From Candidatus Saccharimonadota bacterium (GTDB lineage Bacteria > Patescibacteriota > Gracilibacteria > BD1-5 > UBA6164), in contig OZ245922.1 of the NCBI GenBank assembly GCA_965229705.1, forward strand, positions 60,001 through 92,000: 32,000 nt of DNA, given 5' to 3'. The translations under genes and the position numbers were made by a program. This document shows, one piece after another, positions 21,850 to 26,301 of the stretch (its first letter is position 1; every line of letters starts with the position of its first letter). The notes beneath the pieces are model-generated. The model had not been told where the DNA came from, did no database searches, and was given only the letters and a program-made list of their open reading frames with translations.

Positions 21850-21927
21850 GGTGCTCGTAGTTCAGTTGGTTAGAATGCCAGATTGTGACTCTGGAGGTCG
21901 AGGGTTCAAGTCCCTTCGAGCACCCCA
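21850..21927 (+). tRNA. tRNA-His: tRNA-His (anticodon GTG) with G-1 and encoded CCA
   Basis: g-gtgctcg ta gttc agttggttaga at gccag attGTGac tctgg aggtc gaggg ttcaagt ccctt cgagcac c cca. The 7-bp acceptor stem pairs perfectly. The extra 5' G opposite discriminator C is the bacterial tRNA-His hallmark. T-loop ttcaagt. Confidence 0.9.
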
Positions 21928-23393
21928 TTTGAAAAATTTAAAATTCTGATGATTTCAAACAGCTCATTTTCCTGAATATAGAGCTGTTTTTTAGTGTCTA
22001 CAAAAAGTTCAAGGACAATCATTTCAATGATTTCTATTTTTTTATTCAAATCACCGTTTTTCCACGCAGTAGAGAGGTTTAAGAGGAGTTCGACTGATTT
22101 CTCTACAGCCATCAAAATTTCATCATTTATATACAAAATTCACTCCAATTCTCTCGTATATTTTAAACTTTCATCAAGATATTTTTTTCGTTGTTTATCA
22201 AAATCCTCCTGAGAAATTTTATCTTCACATAGTAGATTCAGTAAATTCTGCTGTTTTCCATTGATTCATCATAATTTAGAGTTTATTGACTGAAATTGAG
22301 ATTTAGCTTCTTTGTACTGTTCCGAAAAGAAGTTATGCAAGAGAGTTCGCACATCTCTTAGGGTGTCTTCGTCTATTATTATATAGCTTCATAGAGTTTT
22401 CTCAAACGCCTCAAGTATTATTTTTTGGTTAATATTCACATTGATTCCATCGCAGGTATCTTTGTTCGAAGAACGGTAGTAAATATTTCATTTTTTCTCG
22501 TATGCTCTAAAAGGCGTTTTTTTGCCCCAGTTTCATTTTATTATTCATTTGAGTGGGAATTTATCCTGTTCAACACTTTCGAAGCTCTTATGTTCTCTTT
22601 TTACTCGAATTTGGTTTATATATTCTGTGCTTACTATCAATTTATGATTATGTTGGAAAACTCTTCCTGCAAAATCATAGAATCCATCATGAAATTTATG
22701 AAAAAGCCATCTTCTCACTTGTTCTGCAGTTACAGGCGTGTTATTCTTTGTTGTGACTCAGTATTTATCGAACATTATTTGAGCTGTTTCTTTGTAAGAG
22801 GTTCACTTTTTGAGTATTCCAAGCATTTTTCTCCACTTCCACTCGTTATCTGGATGAGGGCGTACATCAGTTTCTCATTTTCTGATACGATAATTTTCAT
22901 ATCAGAAAGGAACTTTGTTCATTACTTTAAATTTATTTTCTGCAGCGTGAAGCATTTTTTTCTTCGTGTCTTCTGCTCTGTCTTTGTTTTCTTTTTTCCC
23001 GAGCATTAAAAAAAGTTCAAGACTGAGAACATCTCAAGAATTGTTTGACCTATATAGTTTATCTCAAATATAGACTCACTTTGCAAGTCATTCTTCAAGA
23101 ATCATTATTATTGCAGCCGTATCTCAAGTATTCCTTGAGAGTCTTTTTTCGTCATCAATTATGATAAAATCTACTTTTGAATCTTTTACTAGTTCAATAA
23201 GTTGTTTGAATCATGTTCTCTTTCAGGTATTTTTTATACTAGCACTATGACTTTCTGTGATTTCTTCAATTACACTTAAATCGTTCCTGTCAGCGATTTT
23301 TCGACAGGATTCAATTTGATACTCAAGAGAATTTGTTTGCTTATCATCTCTGTTTGTAGACTTTCTGCAATATATTACTGCGCGATTACTCAT
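21870..23393 (-). CDS. Large serine recombinase / integrase (507 aa to the TAA; 495 aa to the TGA at 21908-21906)
   Basis: MSNRAVIYCRKSTNRDDKQTNSLEYQIESCRKIADRNDL...VDFIIIDDEKRLSRN is the resolvase catalytic domain (YcR.St...Q..SLe.Q, catalytic Ser in RKST). It is followed by a recombinase domain (VPFGYENY...) and a long coiled-coil tail. About 20 TGAs are in frame. The last codons are the reverse complement of tRNA-His positions 21870-21927. Confidence 0.85.
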
Positions 23394-23413: not shown

Positions 23414-24199
23414 CTAATTACACAGACTTCTATCTACATAAGTCTTATTCCCGTTACTATTCCAATAATAACACCCACCACGAGGTCATGTATAGTAAGT
23501 CTTATATCCACTAGTATTTGATTTGTAATACTCATATTCTTCCTCCTCTTCATAATCCTCCCAAATACCCCTTTCGAACCTAATAGCGTTCTCCTCATAT
23601 GTTTGAAACTCCTTTTGGTATTTATAGGCTTTGTTATATGTGTACTCTTCGGCATATCAGCTATTCACCATGTCTCAGTTTATATTTTCTTCTTCAAGAA
23701 AGATATAAGCTAAAACTCTGTCATATCTATCATACATTCATTGTGACTCATCAAACTCTATACTTACTTCTTTTCAGAGTATTTTTTCCGAGAGATATTC
23801 GCTTGCTTCACTATATCAAGCCTCTCATCTTTCGGGAGTATCTATACCAATCATTCTTACAGTAATTATTTCATCTCATTTTTGGTATTTTATCGTATCC
23901 CCATCAACGACATCTACTACAAGAAACTTTGTAGGATCGGGCAGTGTAGTTATTTCGTCTATATAAGATACCAGCATATAAAATAATGCGTATTCTCGAG
24001 AATCACTAGGAAGCAGAGACATATACCACTCTAAAGCAGTTTTCATTGATTCTAACTCCTCAGGATCTTCTTCATATATAACATCTATTTCTTCATATGT
24101 TCCTCGAAGAATCTTATAATCATTCGAGGTAAAATCATATGCAACGGCATGTGATACCATTGAAAAGAACAAGACAAGGGAGATAAGTATATTTTTCAT
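23414..24199 (-). CDS. Secreted thermonuclease (staphylococcal nuclease/SNase-like), 261 aa
   Basis: Track ORF 23876..24199 (signal peptide MKNILISLVLFFSMVSHAVA) runs through a TGA into VVDVVDGDTIKYQKGDEIITVRMIGIDTPERGEAGYSEASEYLSEKILGKEVSIEFDESQGMYDRYDRVLAYIFLEEENINGDMVNSGYAEEY...AIRFERGIW. These are the SNase motifs DGDT, R(l/m).GiD.PE, DrY.R.LAy and GlW. C-terminal tail: YYTGPRGGCYYWNSNGNKTYVDRSLC. TAG stop at 23416-23414. Confidence 0.8.
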
Positions 24200-24208
24200 A
24201 CAGATTTT

Positions 24209-24733
24209 TTAAGGAAATAAAATTTTCATTTTTCTTTCTATGAGTTTTCTTGGTACTCATAATTCAGAGGATAACACAGATACATCATCAGTATCTTTTA
24301 GCTTTTCTCTGAGAAGCGTATCAGGGATAAGCATATCCATTGCAAACTGGTCAGCTCTTTGTTCTATAAAATCACAAAAGCTATTATATCATCTATTTGC
24401 TCGGAGTTTATCATCATGTACTATATGCCCTAGCTCGTGAGCAATAACATATCTCTTGTACTTTGGATAGCTGTTTTCTTTGACGAGTATAAAATCTCGA
24501 CCAAACCTTTTGCAACTGTATCCATAAACTCATTTTGTATGTATTTTTACTTCTTCGAGAACTATTCACATTTGTAAGACAATTTTTTCTATATCCACAA
24601 AATCTCAGTATCCATATTCTTTTAGTATTTCACATGCTTTGGTGTTCATTATTTTTAGAAATATTTTACTATGAAATCTGTTTCGCACGTCCCGCATTTC
24701 TCGAACATATCTATGATTCGGTGCAGATTTCAT
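24209..24733 (-). CDS. ImmA/IrrE-family zinc metallopeptidase (174 aa)
   Basis: KRYVIAHELGHIVHDD (HExxH) ... EQRADQFAMDMLIPDTLLREKL, which is typical of the COG2856/ImmA anti-repressor proteases. ATG at 24733-24731, TAA at 24211-24209. A 9-nt gap separates it from the SNase gene. Confidence 0.8.
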
Positions 24734-24790
24734 TTTTTTTGTTAAAATTACAGTATCTACTAGTTCTTCAAAAGGCTTGTATTATTTCAT

Positions 24791-24823
24791 AGTCAATATA
24801 AAAAATAAATAAATAATTTGCAA
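24791..24823 (-). promoter_or_regulatory. Promoter copy 1 (TTGCAA-N17-TATATT on the minus strand) driving ImmA-SNase-recombinase
   Basis: The 33-bp block agtcaatataaaaaatAaataaataatttgcaa is repeated at 25877-25909 with one mismatch. Read on the minus strand it is TTGCAA attatttatttattttt TATATT gact. Confidence 0.6.
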
Positions 24824-24865
24824 AAAAAATTTGACTTCATTTCTAAAATAATATATTATGTCACT

Positions 24866-24921
24866 ACATCACGACGAAAGGGGAACCGAACGGCTAGTTA
24901 CCTAAGGGCACCCCTTTTTTT
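24866..24921 (+). ncRNA. Candidate small RNA (about 55 nt) between the NYN and ImmA genes, antisense to the NYN 3' UTR
   Basis: Plus-strand TTGACT (24831-24836), a 17-nt spacer, then TATTAT (24854-24859). About 7 nt downstream the sequence runs acatcacgacgaaaGGGGaaccgaacggctagttacctaagggcaCCCCttttttt (7 T at 24915-24921). No ORF. Confidence 0.35.
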
Positions 24922-24926
24922 ATATT

Positions 24927-25433
24927 TTATACCTGTATATATTTATCATATATAATCTTATTTTTTATACTATCATGTGATAAATTTGATCAGTATTGAT
25001 AGCTTATTTTATTATAGAGAGATGAATATTTATTATTTGGAAATAAAATTTTTTCAAGTCTTCATTTTTTTCGTATCCATTCTACTGTTTTTATGTAGTC
25101 TCAATCTCATGATACGAGCACAACTTTATAAAAGCTGTCCTCTTGTATTCTCTTCATTATCTCAAATACTATATCAGTATCTACATTTCATTTCTTGTTT
25201 CATATTTGAGATTTTCGATGTTCTCTAAAAATTACTATGTATCAAGCCTCTTGTAAATCACTATATAAATCTTCATTTTGGTCTTGTACACATCAAAGGA
25301 AGTAAAAAGCTTTTTGAATTTTATACTTTTCTTGTAGATAGATTCTAAATTTGTATATATCTACCTTCCAACCCTCACTCTTTGTTCAGTAGTGAAGGTT
25401 TTGACCATCTATGAATGCATAATTACTACTCAT
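24927..25433 (-). CDS. NYN/LabA-like (PIN-fold) ribonuclease domain protein (168 aa)
   Basis: MSSNYAFIDGQNLHYG...KGNVDTDIVFEIM...FYKVVLVSGDGDYIKTVEWIRKKGRLEKILFPNNKYSSLY. These are the NYN signature acidic residues (iDg.N, vD.di, lvSGD.Df, G..v). The ATG at 25433 is 1 nt after the Xre TAG. TAA at 24929-24927. Confidence 0.7.
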
Positions 25434-25434
25434 C

Positions 25435-25836
25435 CTACCTATCCTTATATTTCAAAGTAACCATATCAAGAAGATTCTTTGCTTCTCTATATGCTTCTTC
25501 ATTTGGAAACTCCTGTTTTAGAGCAAAATCAAACTCTATTTCTTCGGAGTTAGAAATTGATTGTCAGGTTGTGTGTTCGTATTCTGCTTCGCGGGCATCA
25601 TTAAATATTTTTTCAAATTCTGATGAGGATATTCAGAGTGCTTTAGCAATACTTTTCCATCTTTCATTGGATGCTACCTGACGACCGTTAAACATATTTG
25701 TTAGATACGATTGAGAAACTCATACTATACCGCTCAAATTTTCGTATGTAATTGATTTTTCGGATCTTATATAGTTTAGTTTCTTTCAGAGATATTTATT
25801 AAAAAATCCCTTATCAAAGCTATCATCTACCGCCAT
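25435..25836 (-). CDS. Xre/cI-family HTH transcriptional repressor (133 aa)
   Basis: GKKLNYIRSEKSITYENLSGIVGVSQSYLTNMFNGRQVASNERWKSIAKALGIS is an HTH_3 pattern (lk.iR......t.e.La...gvs.s.ls..e.G......ia.aLgv). Acidic C-terminal tail. It is divergent from the rightward early genes. Confidence 0.8.
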
Positions 25837-25876
25837 TATAACTAAAAAACATATAAATATAAGCTGATTATATTAA

Positions 25877-25932
25877 AGTCAATATAAAAAATCAATAAAT
25901 AATTTGCAATAGTTAGTATTTTAACATATAAT
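25877..25932. promoter_or_regulatory. Back-to-back divergent promoters sharing one palindromic -35 hexamer (switch region)
   Basis: Minus strand: TTGCAA (25909-25904), N17, TATATT (25886-25881), towards the Xre gene. Plus strand: the same TTGCAA (25904-25909, its own reverse complement), N17, TATAAT (25927-25932), towards the early genes. The 33-bp block 25877-25909 duplicates 24791-24823. Confidence 0.55.
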
Positions 25933-26133
25933 ACTTGCGTAACTTAGAGATAAGTATTGCTCATTAACATACAAAACTACCAAATAGTAATATAAGTAGT
26001 AGCAATATTGGGATTGGCTGAATTGAAGCGATCAGTAATATGTTAGTGATAATATATATATTATCCATATTGCTTAATTTTTACTATAAATTATATGTAA
26101 TATACATATAAAACTTAAAACAAAACCTAAAAA

Positions 26134-26301
26134 ATGAGAACTTACAAAACAAGAAAAAATCCACTCACGCTACTCCCTGTAGAAAGAAATATGACAAAAC
26201 AAGAGGTAAAGCAGTGATTGATAGATTTTTTCAATGACCCGGATGAGATATTTGAACTAGCCCATCTTGTGGCAATAGTAAATATCAGAAATAGTTTCTA
26301 A
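26134..26301 (+). CDS. Small hypothetical early protein (55 aa)
   Basis: First ORF downstream of the rightward promoter: MRTYKTRKNPLTLLPVERNMTKQEVKQGLIDFFNDPDEIFELAHLVAIVNIRNSF. One TGA. Followed by a hairpin terminator. Confidence 0.3.

What the first reader, a model, noticed from the sequence alone, without database searches (positions are those of the whole stretch)
23414..25836. ImmR/ImmA-type switch with two embedded nucleases (Xre - NYN RNase | ImmA - secreted SNase - integrase): candidate undescribed protease-gated nuclease module
The leftward arm resembles the ICEBs1/phi105-style immR-immA-int cassette, but two nuclease genes are inserted into it.
- A NYN/LabA PIN-fold RNase is translationally coupled to the Xre repressor. 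The repressor TAG and the NYN ATG are 1 nt apart (aggTAGgATGagt).
- A signal-peptide-bearing staphylococcal-type thermonuclease sits 9 nt downstream of the ImmA metalloprotease and 20 nt upstream of the integrase.

Both sub-operons are preceded by the same 33-bp promoter block.

The int-to-repressor interval of temperate elements is a known hotspot for superinfection-exclusion and defence cargo. HTH plus COG2856 protease pairs are known sensor/switch modules.

A plausible but untested reading is a three- or four-part system. ImmA-mediated loss of the Xre protein would de-repress or unleash an intracellular RNase (abortive infection or toxin) and an exported DNase (nutrient scavenging or attack on host/prey DNA).

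I do not know of a described system with this gene order.
Basis: inference. Interest (0 to 1): 0.8.

Follow-up and report, generated by a model that had tools for sequence, protein, structure and literature searches.

The report
Prophage switch carrying two nuclease cargoes
This is the ordinary repressor/protease/integrase control arm of a prophage in a bacterium that reads TGA as glycine; its two nuclease genes are separate add-ons rather than one new system, but one of them turns out to be paired everywhere with a small structured RNA that I could not find described.

Summary
With TGA read as glycine (code 25), 23414-25836 encodes, on the minus strand, Xre, NYN, ImmA (M78) and a secreted SNase, followed by a large serine integrase that overlaps tRNA-His. 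The spacings are as reported, and a 33-nt block occurs twice.

The proposed protease-gated nuclease system is not supported. In about 11 homologous code-25 elements the backbone is Xre-ImmA-integrase. NYN is absent from all of them and SNase occurs in one, which lacks ImmA. Each nuclease recurs on its own in unrelated temperate phages:
- HTH-M78-SNase-integrase is common in IMG/VR and is already present in two published phages (A403 with an annotated Zn peptidase; AP45 similar).
- Repressor-NYN-integrase recurs in three unrelated phages and one close relative.

New result: NYN is not a stand-alone gene. On the opposite strand (window 24831-24926) lies a conserved promoter, a roughly 60-nt structured RNA and a terminator. 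This element is recognisable next to about 83 of 87 NYN genes across candidate phyla radiation (CPR) bacteria, other bacteria and phages. Ten of its 12 base pairs covary. It is absent from Rfam 15 and from the literature I searched. The NYN-plus-RNA cassette split the immR-immA operon, and a duplicated Xre promoter now precedes ImmA.

The parts
21851..21927 (+). tRNA-His; probable integration site of the prophage. Its 3' part is overlapped antisense by the integrase gene end.
   Evidence: ARAGORN; Rfam tRNA, 68.8 bits. The same overlap with tRNA-His or tRNA-Cys is seen in relatives L091, L092 and L093.
21870..23393 (-). Large serine recombinase (integrase), 507 aa.
   Evidence: Pfam Resolvase E=2e-17 plus a weak Recombinase hit. 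Homologues at 37-52% identity sit at the ends of code-25 elements.
23414..24199 (-). Secreted staphylococcal-type nuclease, 261 aa. Cargo at the integrase-proximal position.
   Evidence: Pfam SNase E=2e-19. Catalytic residues conserved in the alignment to S. aureus nuclease. Homologue in L092 at 37% identity, directly upstream of its integrase. The same position recurs in many temperate phages.
24209..24649 (-). ImmA-type M78 metalloprotease, 146 aa. An upstream in-frame ATG at 24733 would give 174 aa.
   Evidence: Pfam Peptidase_M78 E=3.5e-15; HELGH motif. The source annotation P0121 and homologue P0122/L089 both start at the M29 equivalent.
24781..24823 (-). Duplicate copy of the Xre promoter block (TTGCAA-N17-TATATT), now preceding ImmA-SNase-integrase.
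   Evidence: 43-nt direct repeat, 91% identity. The 33-nt core occurs twice, with none expected by chance. Promoter-like match.
24831..24859 (+). Promoter of the NYN-associated small RNA (TTGACT-N17-TATTAT).
   Evidence: Consensus scan, 10 of 12. TTGnnn-N16-18-TAnnnT is present at the same distance in 63 of 64 homologous loci.
24862..24926 (+). Conserved structured small RNA of about 60 nt, convergent with NYN, with a terminator hairpin and U-tract abutting the NYN stop codon.
   Evidence: Covariance model R1 hit, 57.9 bits, E=4e-8, the only hit in the window. Terminator-like site at 24904-24916. Family alignment: 10 of 12 pairs have compensatory changes and 94.7% of cells are paired; none of 500 shuffles reaches the observed values. 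No Rfam match.
24927..25433 (-). NYN/LabA-like PIN-fold nuclease, 168 aa, translationally coupled to Xre.
   Evidence: Pfam NYN E=5e-17. 3423 homologues; acidic active-site residues invariant or nearly so. Nearest solved structure 2qip.
25435..25836 (-). Xre/ImmR-like repressor, 133 aa.
   Evidence: Pfam HTH_3 E=1e-8. Same family as the HTH proteins that precede ImmA in relatives.
25867..25909 (-). Original Xre promoter block.
   Evidence: Repeat. 28 of 33 nt are conserved upstream of the Xre gene of relative L091.
25836..25856 (.). Imperfect copy of the operator-like palindrome, at the Xre start codon.
   Evidence: 3 mismatches to TTATATGTA-N3-TACATATAA. Only two sites in the window, 0.11 expected by chance.
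26091..26111 (.). Perfect 9-nt-arm palindrome, 23 nt upstream of the first rightward gene. Candidate repressor operator.
26134..26301 (+). First rightward (early) ORF, 55 aa. It is followed by Erf, NinB and VRR-NUC-like genes, which mark the element as a prophage.
   Evidence: ORF listing under code 25; PHROG hits to Erf, NinB and an endonuclease.

Best explanation
The interval is the lysogeny-control arm of a code-25 (Gracilibacteria/Absconditabacteria-type) prophage integrated at tRNA-His.

Backbone. The backbone is the known three-gene cassette of an Xre/ImmR-like repressor, an ImmA-type metalloprotease and an integrase, here a large serine recombinase. By analogy with ICEBs1 and phi105, the repressor silences the divergent early promoter. 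ImmA would cleave the repressor on an induction signal. This step is inferred, not shown.

Two unrelated cargo units were inserted into the backbone.

(1) A self-contained cassette directly after the Xre stop codon. It consists of a promoter-less NYN nuclease gene and, on the opposite strand, a small structured RNA gene with its own sigma-70-type promoter. The terminator hairpin of that RNA is shared with the NYN 3' end.
- NYN is therefore made from the repressor transcript in lysogens.
- The bidirectional terminator cut ImmA-SNase-integrase off from the Xre promoter. A 43-nt duplicate of that promoter now sits in front of ImmA.
- My committed reading of the cassette, which is inference: an RNA-controlled RNase module of toxin-antitoxin type, used for prophage addiction or abortive-infection defence.
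- In this reading the short RNA restrains NYN either by pairing with the complementary 3' end of its mRNA (about 40 nt or more) or by binding the protein through its conserved loops.

(2) A secreted SNase at the integrase-proximal hotspot. This is a lysogenic-conversion nuclease of the kind found at the same position in many temperate phages. It probably degrades extracellular or incoming DNA, serving as a barrier to foreign DNA or for nucleotide scavenging. This too is inference.
For: Prophage context. Erf, NinB and VRR-NUC-like genes lie to the right and tRNA-His lies at the left end.

Backbone.
- L091, L093, L103/L104, L105, L106 and L114 have Xre-ImmA-SerRec. L089 has ImmA-SerRec preceded by a 9-residue Xre-like C-terminus.
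- The Xre proteins form one family.

Cargo status.
- NYN is found in none of these elements and SNase only in L092.
- Other cargo occupies the same slot: a 70-aa membrane protein in L089, and 46-aa plus 170-aa proteins in L093.

SNase recurrence.
- 24 of 58 viral SNase loci have an integrase within 3 kb, and 7 also have an M78 protease.
- Pfam confirms the order for L122 and L138.
- Published phages A403 and AP45 show the same layout.
- SPbeta YokF is a prophage-encoded SNase-type nuclease that blocks plasmid transfer (bioRxiv 10.1101/2025.10.26.684598).

NYN recurrence after repressors.
- L115: Xre 33% identical, NYN 65% identical, 0-nt gap between them.
- L087: Xre then NYN with a 1-nt gap, then a tyrosine integrase.
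- L085 and L086: CI/S24 repressor, NYN, tyrosine integrase.
- The repressors and integrases of L085-L087 are nearly unrelated to each other.

The RNA.
- Conserved element next to NYN.
- Promoter present in 63 of 64 loci and U-tract in 59 of 64.
- Covariation: 10 of 12 pairs, none of 500 shuffles reaches the observed values, and slid controls are far lower.
- G-U pairs (59 cells) outnumber A-C pairs (15 cells) on the strand opposite NYN.
- All 15 covariance-model hits in 1.03 Mb are NYN-adjacent, and there are none in about 75 SerRec and SNase loci.
- The core motif is present next to 69 of 87 NYN genes, against 13 hits in the remaining 837 kb of the same loci.
- In L033 the RNA gene is inverted relative to NYN, which suggests an independent transcription unit.

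Promoter duplication. The block is conserved upstream of Xre in L091, 28 of 33 nt. In relatives the Xre-to-ImmA gaps are only 5-91 nt.
Against: - No expression, cleavage or toxicity data exist for any part.
- For the window copy alone, the NYN-sense strand folds more stably (-18.4 versus -14.4 kcal/mol). The strand assignment therefore rests on family-level evidence.
- Any terminator stem covaries, so part of the covariation signal is not specific to a functional RNA.
- The RNA's conserved 5' tail shows no conserved pairing with NYN mRNA beyond chance.
- NYN is highly conserved (55-60% identity across phyla) and sits among housekeeping genes in several genomes. That fits a cellular RNase as well as a toxin.
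- The census of homologous elements is small, about 11, and several are short contigs.
- The candidate operator palindrome is absent from the ImmA promoter copy, so co-regulation of the two transcripts is not shown.
Confidence: 0.72

Rival explanations
1. Xre, NYN, ImmA and SNase form one dedicated three- or four-part system in which ImmA-mediated loss of Xre unleashes an intracellular RNase and an exported DNase.
For: - All four genes are co-oriented and tightly spaced.
- Both transcription units carry the same promoter block.
- HTH plus M78 pairs are known to gate associated operons: CapH/CapP, and the best PADLOC hit for ImmA is CapP.
- One cellular locus, L019, has Xre-ImmA next to a nuclease-like gene, with NYN 2 kb away.
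Against: - NYN is absent from all other homologous elements, and SNase is present in one that lacks ImmA.
- No other locus out of more than 150 examined has both nucleases.
- NYN follows S24-type repressors with no ImmA present.
- NYN has its own conserved RNA partner.
- NYN is co-transcribed with the repressor, so it is expressed while the repressor is present, not when it is lost.
Confidence: 0.06
2. Xre and NYN form a type II toxin-antitoxin pair. The HTH protein is a protein antitoxin that directly neutralises the NYN toxin.
For: - Translational coupling with a 1-nt gap in the window, a 0-nt gap in L115 and a 1-nt gap in L087.
- Xre-type antitoxins are common (established knowledge).
- The ImmA protein has a weak NCBIfam hit to the 'spr1629 family repressor/antitoxin' model.
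Against: - Only about 6 of roughly 90 NYN loci have an HTH gene directly upstream. Upstream neighbours are otherwise heterogeneous.
- The upstream proteins are bona fide phage repressors of different architectures, ImmR-like or HTH+S24. They sit opposite Cro-like genes.
- NYN occurs alone inside a trp operon and among nucleotide-metabolism genes.
Confidence: 0.07
3. NYN plus the small RNA is a cellular housekeeping pair with no conflict or defence role. NYN would be an RNA-processing nuclease with a cis-antisense regulator or an RNA cofactor or substrate. The prophage merely carries a host-derived copy as a neutral or mildly beneficial passenger gene.
For: - 55-60% identity across CPR phyla.
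- Locations next to housekeeping genes and rRNA or tRNA genes in some genomes.
- The literature links bacterial NYN to tRNA or rRNA processing by gene context only (PMC5499597).
- The window NYN is closest to Gracilibacteria chromosomal copies at 61% identity.
- No PHROG match.
Against: - NYN has been captured repeatedly and independently at the same slot behind prophage repressors, in phages with unrelated integrases.
- It is scattered and variable in genomic context, including an insertion inside a trp operon.
- It is present in non-CPR bacteria and in phage structural modules.
- There are weak PADLOC hits to candidate defence NYN proteins.
- Possible orphan RNA copies occur in phages.
Confidence: 0.25
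4. The conserved element downstream of NYN is not a functional small RNA. It would be only a bidirectional terminator, or a DNA-level site such as a cassette end or recombination site.
For: - It is a hairpin flanked by an A-tract and a T-tract, and terminator stems covary trivially.
- The window copy folds better on the NYN strand.
- NYN behaves like a mobile single-gene cassette.
Against: - The loops and the 5' tail (AUCAAKACGAAAA, CGAACGG, CCUAAGG) are conserved in sequence across phyla, which terminators do not require.
- A sigma-70-type promoter at fixed distance on the opposite strand is found in 63 of 64 loci.
- There is a G-U excess on that strand.
- Four loci keep the promoter and the 5' motif with a different hairpin.
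- In L033 the whole unit is inverted.
- No matching conserved sequence is possible at the other end of the gene, since there is only a 1-nt gap to Xre.
Confidence: 0.1

Closest known systems
ImmR/ImmA/Int cassette of Bacillus subtilis ICEBs1 and phage phi105 (Bose et al. 2008; Bose and Grossman 2011, as cited in bioRxiv 10.1101/2022.04.27.489752)
   Same: An HTH repressor, a small single-domain M78/COG2856 metalloprotease and an integrase are co-oriented at the element end, divergent from the genes that drive excision or lytic growth.
   Different: - The integrase is a large serine recombinase that overlaps a tRNA gene.
- The operon is split by an inserted NYN-plus-RNA cassette and re-promoted by a duplicated promoter.
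- A secreted nuclease lies between protease and integrase.
- The host uses code 25.
- Cleavage of Xre by ImmA is untested.
CapH/CapP regulators of CBASS and other defence operons (bioRxiv 10.1101/2022.04.27.489752; PMC13228613)
   Same: An HTH plus M78 peptidase pair. The best PADLOC hit of the window ImmA is CapP, E=1e-16. The concept is that repressor cleavage de-represses an associated operon.
   Different: - The match covers only CapP profile positions 7-125 of 242, so the protein shows no match to the C-terminal half (the GAF domain described for CapP).
- No divergently controlled immune operon is present.
- The associated genes are prophage lytic genes.
- NYN and SNase are not conserved partners.
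Lysogeny modules with a nuclease between repressor/protease and integrase: Anoxybacillus phage A403 (MG969427), Aeribacillus phage AP45 (KX965989), IMG/VR contigs L122, L138 and L139
   Same: The order is repressor, Zn peptidase (M78), SNase-family nuclease, recombinase, all on one strand and opposite Cro. In the IMG/VR contigs the SNase has a signal-peptide-like N-terminus by a crude heuristic.
   Different: - These phages lack NYN and use the standard genetic code.
- Extra genes are interspersed in A403 and AP45.
- AP45 has an unannotated hypothetical protein where A403 has the Zn peptidase.
- Sequence identity in the SNase domain is only 35-43%.
SPbeta prophage YokF (bioRxiv 10.1101/2025.10.26.684598)
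   Same: A prophage-encoded SNase-family nuclease exported to the cell envelope. It shows 30-31% identity over the SNase domain in a tblastn search.
   Different: - YokF is membrane-localised and acts on plasmid transfer through nanotubes.
- The window protein has an AxA-type signal peptide with no lipobox, plus different N- and C-terminal extensions.
- Its function is untested.
Type I toxin-antitoxin loci with convergent 3'-overlapping antisense RNA (B. subtilis bsrG/SR4, txpA/RatA; own knowledge and reviews listed)
   Same: A protein gene and a small RNA gene are convergent and overlap at their 3' ends. The RNA has its own constitutive-looking promoter. Such loci are frequently located in prophages.
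   Different: - The 'toxin' here would be a 168-aa PIN-fold nuclease, not a small hydrophobic peptide.
- The RNA has sequence-conserved loops, suggesting protein binding.
- Toxicity is untested.
NYN.COG1432 / LabA-like family, structure 2qip (PMC5499597)
   Same: Pfam PF01936 match, four conserved acidic residues, and the nearest solved structure is 2qip.
   Different: The family is annotated 'function unknown'. The 2017 survey lists one dsDNA-virus member. In the passages I retrieved it reports no associated RNA and no prophage-repressor linkage.

Membership tests
ImmR/ImmA-type switch (ICEBs1, phi105) | Xre-family HTH repressor gene | tested here: met
   HTH_3 E=1e-8. It aligns with the HTH proteins that precede ImmA in relatives.
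ImmR/ImmA-type switch (ICEBs1, phi105) | Single-domain COG2856/M78 metalloprotease with an HExxH motif, encoded with the repressor | tested here: met
   Peptidase_M78 E=3.5e-15; HELGH motif. It is directly adjacent to Xre in relatives L091, L093, L103-L106 and L114, and probably in L089.
ImmR/ImmA-type switch (ICEBs1, phi105) | Integrase co-oriented at the element end, with divergent genes under repressor control | tested here: met
   Serine recombinase at the tRNA-His end. Divergent early genes and an operator-like palindrome are present.
ImmR/ImmA-type switch (ICEBs1, phi105) | The protease cleaves the repressor on induction | not testable with these tools
   Needs biochemistry. There is only a conserved E...G linker motif after the HTH domain.
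CapH/CapP defence regulators | CapP architecture: M78 domain plus a C-terminal GAF-like domain with a cysteine-switch loop | tested here: not met
   The protein is 146-174 aa. The PADLOC match covers CapP profile positions 7-125 of 242.
CapH/CapP defence regulators | Conserved association with a neighbouring immune operon | tested here: not met
   In homologous elements the conserved neighbour is the integrase. NYN and SNase are not conserved.
Staphylococcal nuclease (SNase, PF00565) | Ca-binding and catalytic residues D21, R35, D40, T41, E43, R87 (S. aureus numbering, my assignment) | tested here: met
   The residues I match to those positions are conserved in the alignment to PDB thermonuclease chains. 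Pfam E=2e-19.
Staphylococcal nuclease (SNase, PF00565) | Export signal | tested here: inconclusive
   An N-terminal K-hydrophobic-AVA motif is seen by inspection and by a crude heuristic. No dedicated signal-peptide predictor was available.
NYN / LabA-like (PF01936, NYN.COG1432) | PIN-like fold with four conserved acidic residues | tested here: met
   Pfam E=5e-17. D85, D87, D110 and D112 are invariant and D9 is nearly invariant across 31 sequences. Hit to 2qip.
Type II toxin-antitoxin (Xre antitoxin plus toxin) | Conserved adjacency of the antitoxin gene and the toxin gene across the family | tested here: not met
   An HTH gene lies directly upstream in about 6 of roughly 90 NYN loci.
Type I toxin-antitoxin | Cis-encoded antisense RNA overlapping the toxin mRNA | tested here: met
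   A convergent RNA gene shares the terminator hairpin with the NYN 3' end in about 83 of 87 loci. Transcription itself is inferred.
Type I toxin-antitoxin | Small hydrophobic membrane-active toxin peptide | tested here: not met
   NYN is a 168-aa soluble PIN-fold nuclease.
Type III toxin-antitoxin (ToxIN-like) | Tandem-repeat RNA antitoxin encoded upstream of, and co-oriented with, an endoRNase toxin | tested here: not met
   The RNA is a single copy on the opposite strand, downstream of NYN. Only L087 has two copies of the core.
Any Rfam 15 RNA family (for the NYN-associated RNA) | Covariance-model match | tested here: not met
   No hit at E<=1 at the element in the window or in 11 other loci.

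The most novel reading that the evidence does not exclude
The NYN/LabA-like nuclease and its convergent small RNA form a previously undescribed, horizontally mobile two-component protein-RNA module. The RNA is about 60 nt, is structurally conserved, and has its own promoter and terminator. The module would be an RNA-controlled RNase of toxin-antitoxin or abortive-infection type. It is widespread in CPR bacteria, also present in other phyla and in phages, and repeatedly captured directly behind prophage repressor genes so that it is expressed in lysogens. Rare orphan copies of the RNA in phages (L202/L250) could then be anti-module decoys.
Probability: 0.35. Interest if true: 0.8.

Novelty: new variant of a known kind. 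Interest (0 to 1): 0.55.

Why it matters
As originally framed, the finding is an ordinary prophage lysogeny arm with cargo genes. Its main value there is as a clean example from a code-25 CPR-type host, a group with few described prophages (PMC10746230).

The follow-up result has more weight. A large, functionally uncharacterised nuclease family (NYN.COG1432, 'function unknown' in PMC5499597) turns out to have a conserved RNA partner with covariation support that is not in Rfam. That gives the family a directly testable hypothesis: an RNase controlled by, or acting with, a specific small RNA. It also offers an explanation for why the gene appears as a single-gene insertion in operons, phage modules and behind prophage repressors.

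If the pair is a toxin-antitoxin or defence module, it would add a new toxin fold and RNA architecture to RNA-antitoxin systems. It would also add a candidate immunity function to CPR bacteria and their phages.

Tried and rejected
- Exact look-up of the source contig with P0001 and P0121 found nothing on record. The cluster look-up gave no accession.
- A scan of viral contigs with the single Xre protein found no relatives. The Xre family alignment had no stretch conserved enough to scan with.
- The ImmA protein search returned only itself and one homologue.
- phmmer with the window Xre, ImmA and SNase against 81 NYN loci found nothing. Small family profiles added only L019 and L085.
- I tested whether the NYN-downstream hairpin was merely a stable terminator. 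The single-sequence fold was not significant (z=-1.55), so I turned to comparative analysis.
- I tested for trans pairing of the RNA 5' tail with NYN mRNA. It was no better than shuffled controls.
- An exact-pattern scan of viral contigs for the RNA core gave 104 stretches. Of the 80 listed, the covariance model kept only 3, so most look like chance matches.
- I considered SRP RNA, a tRNA T-arm, 16S helix 45 or anti-SD mimicry, and kink-turn motifs for the RNA, by inspection. None fitted consistently across the family, and they are not claimed.
- PHROGs has no family for this NYN, and NCBIfam has none either.
- My automatic code-11 versus code-25 assignment misclassified a few high-GC loci, such as L162. 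Those calls were checked by eye and with Pfam.

Full report
**1. The observation**

Under table 11 the interval contains only short ORFs. Allowing TGA as a sense codon raises the total length of ORFs of at least 100 aa from 15 kb to 66 kb and yields a compact gene map. In an alignment of 31 NYN homologues, the window's TGA codons fall on invariant glycines such as SGDGD. The database copy of the same protein, P0001, carries W at those positions because it was translated with code 4. The code is therefore 25, as in Gracilibacteria and Absconditabacteria (PMC10746230).

With that code the minus strand encodes the following genes (Pfam):
- Xre, 25435-25836.
- NYN, 24927-25433.
- ImmA/M78, 24209-24733, more likely starting at 24649.
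- SNase, 23414-24199.
- A large serine recombinase, 21870-23393.

The reported junctions are exact: 1 nt, 9 nt and 20 nt. The 33-nt block occurs twice in 32 kb, with none expected by chance. It extends to 43 nt at 91% identity and contains a TTGCAA-N17-TATATT promoter-like match.

The catalytic residues of NYN and SNase and the HExxH motif of ImmA are intact. The right flank carries Erf, NinB and VRR-NUC-like genes. The recombinase gene end overlaps tRNA-His. This is the left arm of a prophage.

**2. Is it one system? Homologous elements**

The recombinase has few relatives, and all of them sit in code-25 DNA. Their upstream regions are:

| Locus | Arrangement upstream of the integrase |
|---|---|
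| L091 (=L094) | Xre-ImmA-SerRec-tRNA-His |
| L093 | Xre-ImmA-46 aa-170 aa-SerRec-tRNA-Cys |
| L103/L104, L105, L106, L114 | Xre-ImmA-SerRec, contiguous |
| L090 | Xre-SerRec |
| L092 | 51 aa-SNase-SerRec-tRNA-Cys, no ImmA |
| L095, L097 | Other genes |

Sources.

The closest ImmA homologue (about 60% identity, L089) is preceded 5 nt upstream by the end of an ORF...DYVTAKYKD*. This matches the window Xre C-terminus ...DMVTLKYKDR*. It is followed by a 70-aa membrane protein and then the recombinase.

The ancestral unit is therefore Xre-ImmA-integrase. NYN occurs in none of these elements. SNase occurs in one, without ImmA.

**3. SNase is a recurrent integrase-proximal cargo**

A scan of IMG/VR found 68 SNase loci.
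- Of the 58 with a called SNase ORF, 24 have an integrase within 3 kb, usually immediately downstream. Seven also have an M78 protease.
- Pfam confirms HTH_3, Peptidase_M78, SNase and serine recombinase in that order in L122. It confirms HTH_3, Peptidase_M78, SNase and tyrosine integrase in L138.
- In GenBank, Anoxybacillus phage A403 is annotated Cro | immunity repressor, Zn peptidase..., DNase/RNase endonuclease..., recombinase. Aeribacillus phage AP45 has a similar layout, with a hypothetical protein where A403 has the Zn peptidase.
- SPbeta YokF is a prophage SNase-type nuclease shown to block plasmid transfer.

The int-to-repressor slot is a known site for lysogen-expressed genes. One example is ltp, which lies within the lysogeny module of Streptococcus thermophilus phage TP-J34 (PMC3952083).

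**4. NYN is widespread and usually has no HTH neighbour**

The NYN protein has 3423 homologues. Many are 55-60% identical across CPR phyla, and some are in other bacteria.
- In 81 cellular loci no homologue of the window Xre, ImmA or SNase lies within 6 kb.
- Upstream neighbours are heterogeneous.
- With family profiles, only L016 has an HTH gene directly upstream, and only L019 has Xre-ImmA 2 kb away.
- Contexts include nucleotide-metabolism genes and the middle of a trp operon.

**5. NYN nevertheless recurs directly behind prophage repressors**

- The closest homologue (L115, 65% identity, code 25) follows a 33%-identical Xre with a 0-nt gap.
- Three of the seven NYN-bearing viral contigs have Cro | repressor, NYN, tyrosine integrase.
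  - L085 and L086 have HTH+S24 repressors.
  - L087 has a 144-aa Xre with a 1-nt gap to NYN.
- The repressors and integrases of those three are almost unrelated to each other.
- The window NYN is closer to chromosomal Gracilibacteria copies (61%) than to those phage copies (44-50%).

This argues for independent capture into the same slot, and for a role in the lysogen that does not depend on ImmA.

**6. The unexpected part: a conserved RNA gene opposite NYN**

Comparing the DNA downstream of NYN stop codons revealed a conserved element of about 100 nt in nearly every locus. Read on the strand opposite NYN, it consists of:
- TTGAC(A/T)-N16-18-TATAAT, found in 63 of 64 loci, with the -10 element ending 6-8 nt before the conserved start motif in 58 of the 63.
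- The conserved sequence AUCAAKACGAAAAGGGAUCCGAACGG(U)GUUAGUGCCUAAGGAGCCCUUUU.
- A U-tract, found in 59 of 64 loci.

RNAalifold predicts one long hairpin with three helices, P1 to P3.
- Ten of the 12 pairs have compensatory changes.
- 94.7% of cells are paired, none of 500 shuffles reaches any of the five measures, and slid controls are far lower.
- G-U pairs (59 cells) outnumber A-C pairs (15 cells) on this strand. The same structure on the NYN strand would therefore be about 88% paired (calculated).

A covariance model behaved as follows:
- It found 15 hits in 1.03 Mb. All are immediately adjacent to NYN, and none falls in about 75 SerRec and SNase loci. The only window hit is at 24862-24926 (+).
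- A second 0.89 Mb gave only L202/L250, which are the same phage with no NYN nearby, and a weak L245 hit.

A simple core motif is present next to 69 of 87 NYN genes, against 13 hits in the remaining 837 kb of the same loci. Twelve further loci carry covarying variants already included in the alignment. Two more, L014 and L086, carry variants recognisable by eye. Four keep the promoter and the 5' motif with a different hairpin.

In L033 the whole unit is inverted relative to NYN. That fits an independent gene rather than a 3' UTR.

There is no Rfam 15 match. Four literature searches found no description. The PIN-superfamily survey lists this NYN group as 'function unknown'.

In the window, the RNA promoter is TTGACT-N17-TATTAT at 24831-24859 (+) and the terminator is at 24904-24916 (+). 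Both had already been picked up by the blind scan.

**7. How the pieces fit in the window**

The segment from 25433 to about 24828 is a promoter-less NYN gene plus the RNA gene. It sits exactly between the Xre stop codon and the position where ImmA begins in relatives.

Its bidirectional terminator would cut ImmA-SNase-integrase off from the Xre promoter. Immediately beyond it, back-to-back with the RNA promoter, lies the 43-nt duplicate of the Xre promoter block. The copy upstream of Xre is the original one, because 28 of 33 nt are conserved upstream of Xre in L091 and a similar motif is present in L115.

Candidate operators flank the divergent region but are absent from the ImmA copy:
- A perfect palindrome at 26091-26111.
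- A degenerate copy at the Xre start.

All five genes use TGA-Gly heavily. NYN has the highest usage at 82%. Neither cargo gene therefore looks like a recent import from a standard-code organism.

**8. Mechanism and its status**

Shown:
- Gene identities and intact catalytic motifs.
- The conserved backbone.
- The cargo status of both nucleases.
- The NYN-RNA association and the RNA structure.

Inferred from the ICEBs1 and phi105 precedents: ImmA cleaves Xre to induce the prophage.

Inferred:
- NYN is made from the repressor transcript in lysogens.
- The small RNA restrains NYN either by pairing with the complementary mRNA 3' end or by binding the protein through its conserved loops.
- The 5' tail shows no conserved pairing with NYN mRNA.
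- The pair acts as a toxin-antitoxin-like addiction or abortive-infection module.
- The SNase is exported and degrades extracellular or incoming DNA.

A housekeeping role for NYN plus the RNA remains a serious rival.

**9. Verdict**

The ImmR/ImmA/integrase reading is right. The single protease-gated nuclease system is not supported, and the ImmA-SNase-integrase order is already in public phage genomes.

The most interesting outcome lies inside the reported coordinates but was not part of the finding. It is a conserved, apparently undescribed small RNA paired with a widespread NYN nuclease.

Noticed in passing
window 21851-21927 and 21870-23393; L091 4178-4254; L092 7594-7667; L093 9428-9502: In this whole family of large serine recombinases, the 3' end of the integrase gene overlaps a tRNA gene on the opposite strand: His in the window and L091, Cys in L092 and L093. 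The last roughly 20 residues are therefore encoded by the tRNA complement. Other members end in ...WWVIRDSNPGPSP, which looks like the same arrangement.
   Followed up: partly
L116 7001-7640 and L117 2990-3620: The NYN gene plus its small RNA sits inside a tryptophan biosynthesis operon, between the PRAI (trpF-type) gene and a PALP-domain (trpB-like) gene. It looks like a single-gene insertion.
   Followed up: partly
L202 480-542 and L250 2877-2939 (same phage); L245 439-504: Copies of the NYN-associated RNA (promoter, 5' motif, hairpin, U-tract) occur in viral contigs with no NYN gene nearby. In L245 a weak match (E=0.07) lies just upstream of a 504-aa ORF whose function I did not identify. 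These could be decoys, remnants or chance matches.
   Followed up: partly
L087 8504-8600: There are two tandem copies of the RNA core (...CGAACGGAGAGATACCTAAGC...) downstream of one NYN gene.
   Followed up: no
L007, L010, L014, L034-L040, L046, L067, L084 (downstream of NYN): A variant of the RNA, found mostly in Saccharibacteria loci, has a 5' AUACCGAYRC motif and a GGGCRAUUCGAACGGAGAGAUACCUAAGAAGAACCCG hairpin. Covariance model R1 misses it at E<0.1, so a second model iteration is needed.
   Followed up: no
L019 1304-6501: A Bdellovibrionales metagenome-assembled genome has a large helicase-like protein, Xre, an M78 protease and a 500-aa nuclease-like protein in a row. A small gene and then NYN plus the RNA follow just downstream. 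This may be a CapH/CapP-style regulated defence cluster.
   Followed up: no
P0001, P0121, P0123 (database copies of the window proteins): The public protein records for this genome (contig of 1,006,762 bp) carry W where the family has invariant G. The source was therefore translated with code 4 rather than code 25.
   Followed up: partly
window 21892-22048 (-): A weak Rfam hit to HPnc0260 antisense RNA (46.7 bits, below the gathering score of 59, E=0.004) overlaps the tRNA-His and integrase-end region. It is probably chance.
   Followed up: no
L089 466-678; L093 7349-8013: Different cargo occupies the ImmA-to-integrase slot in relatives. L089 has a 70-aa two-helix membrane protein. L093 has a 46-aa protein plus a 170-aa protein with an N-terminal membrane segment. 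This fits a superinfection-exclusion-type hotspot.
   Followed up: no
window 23414-23560 (SNase residues about 215-261): The SNase has an acidic EEEEEYEYY linker and a C-terminal tail, GPRGGCYYWNSNGNKTYVDRSLC. The C-terminal region matches only an uncharacterised PHROG (phrog_2459, residues 186-257, E=3e-4). The L092 homologue has an Excalibur-type Ca-binding tail instead.
   Followed up: no
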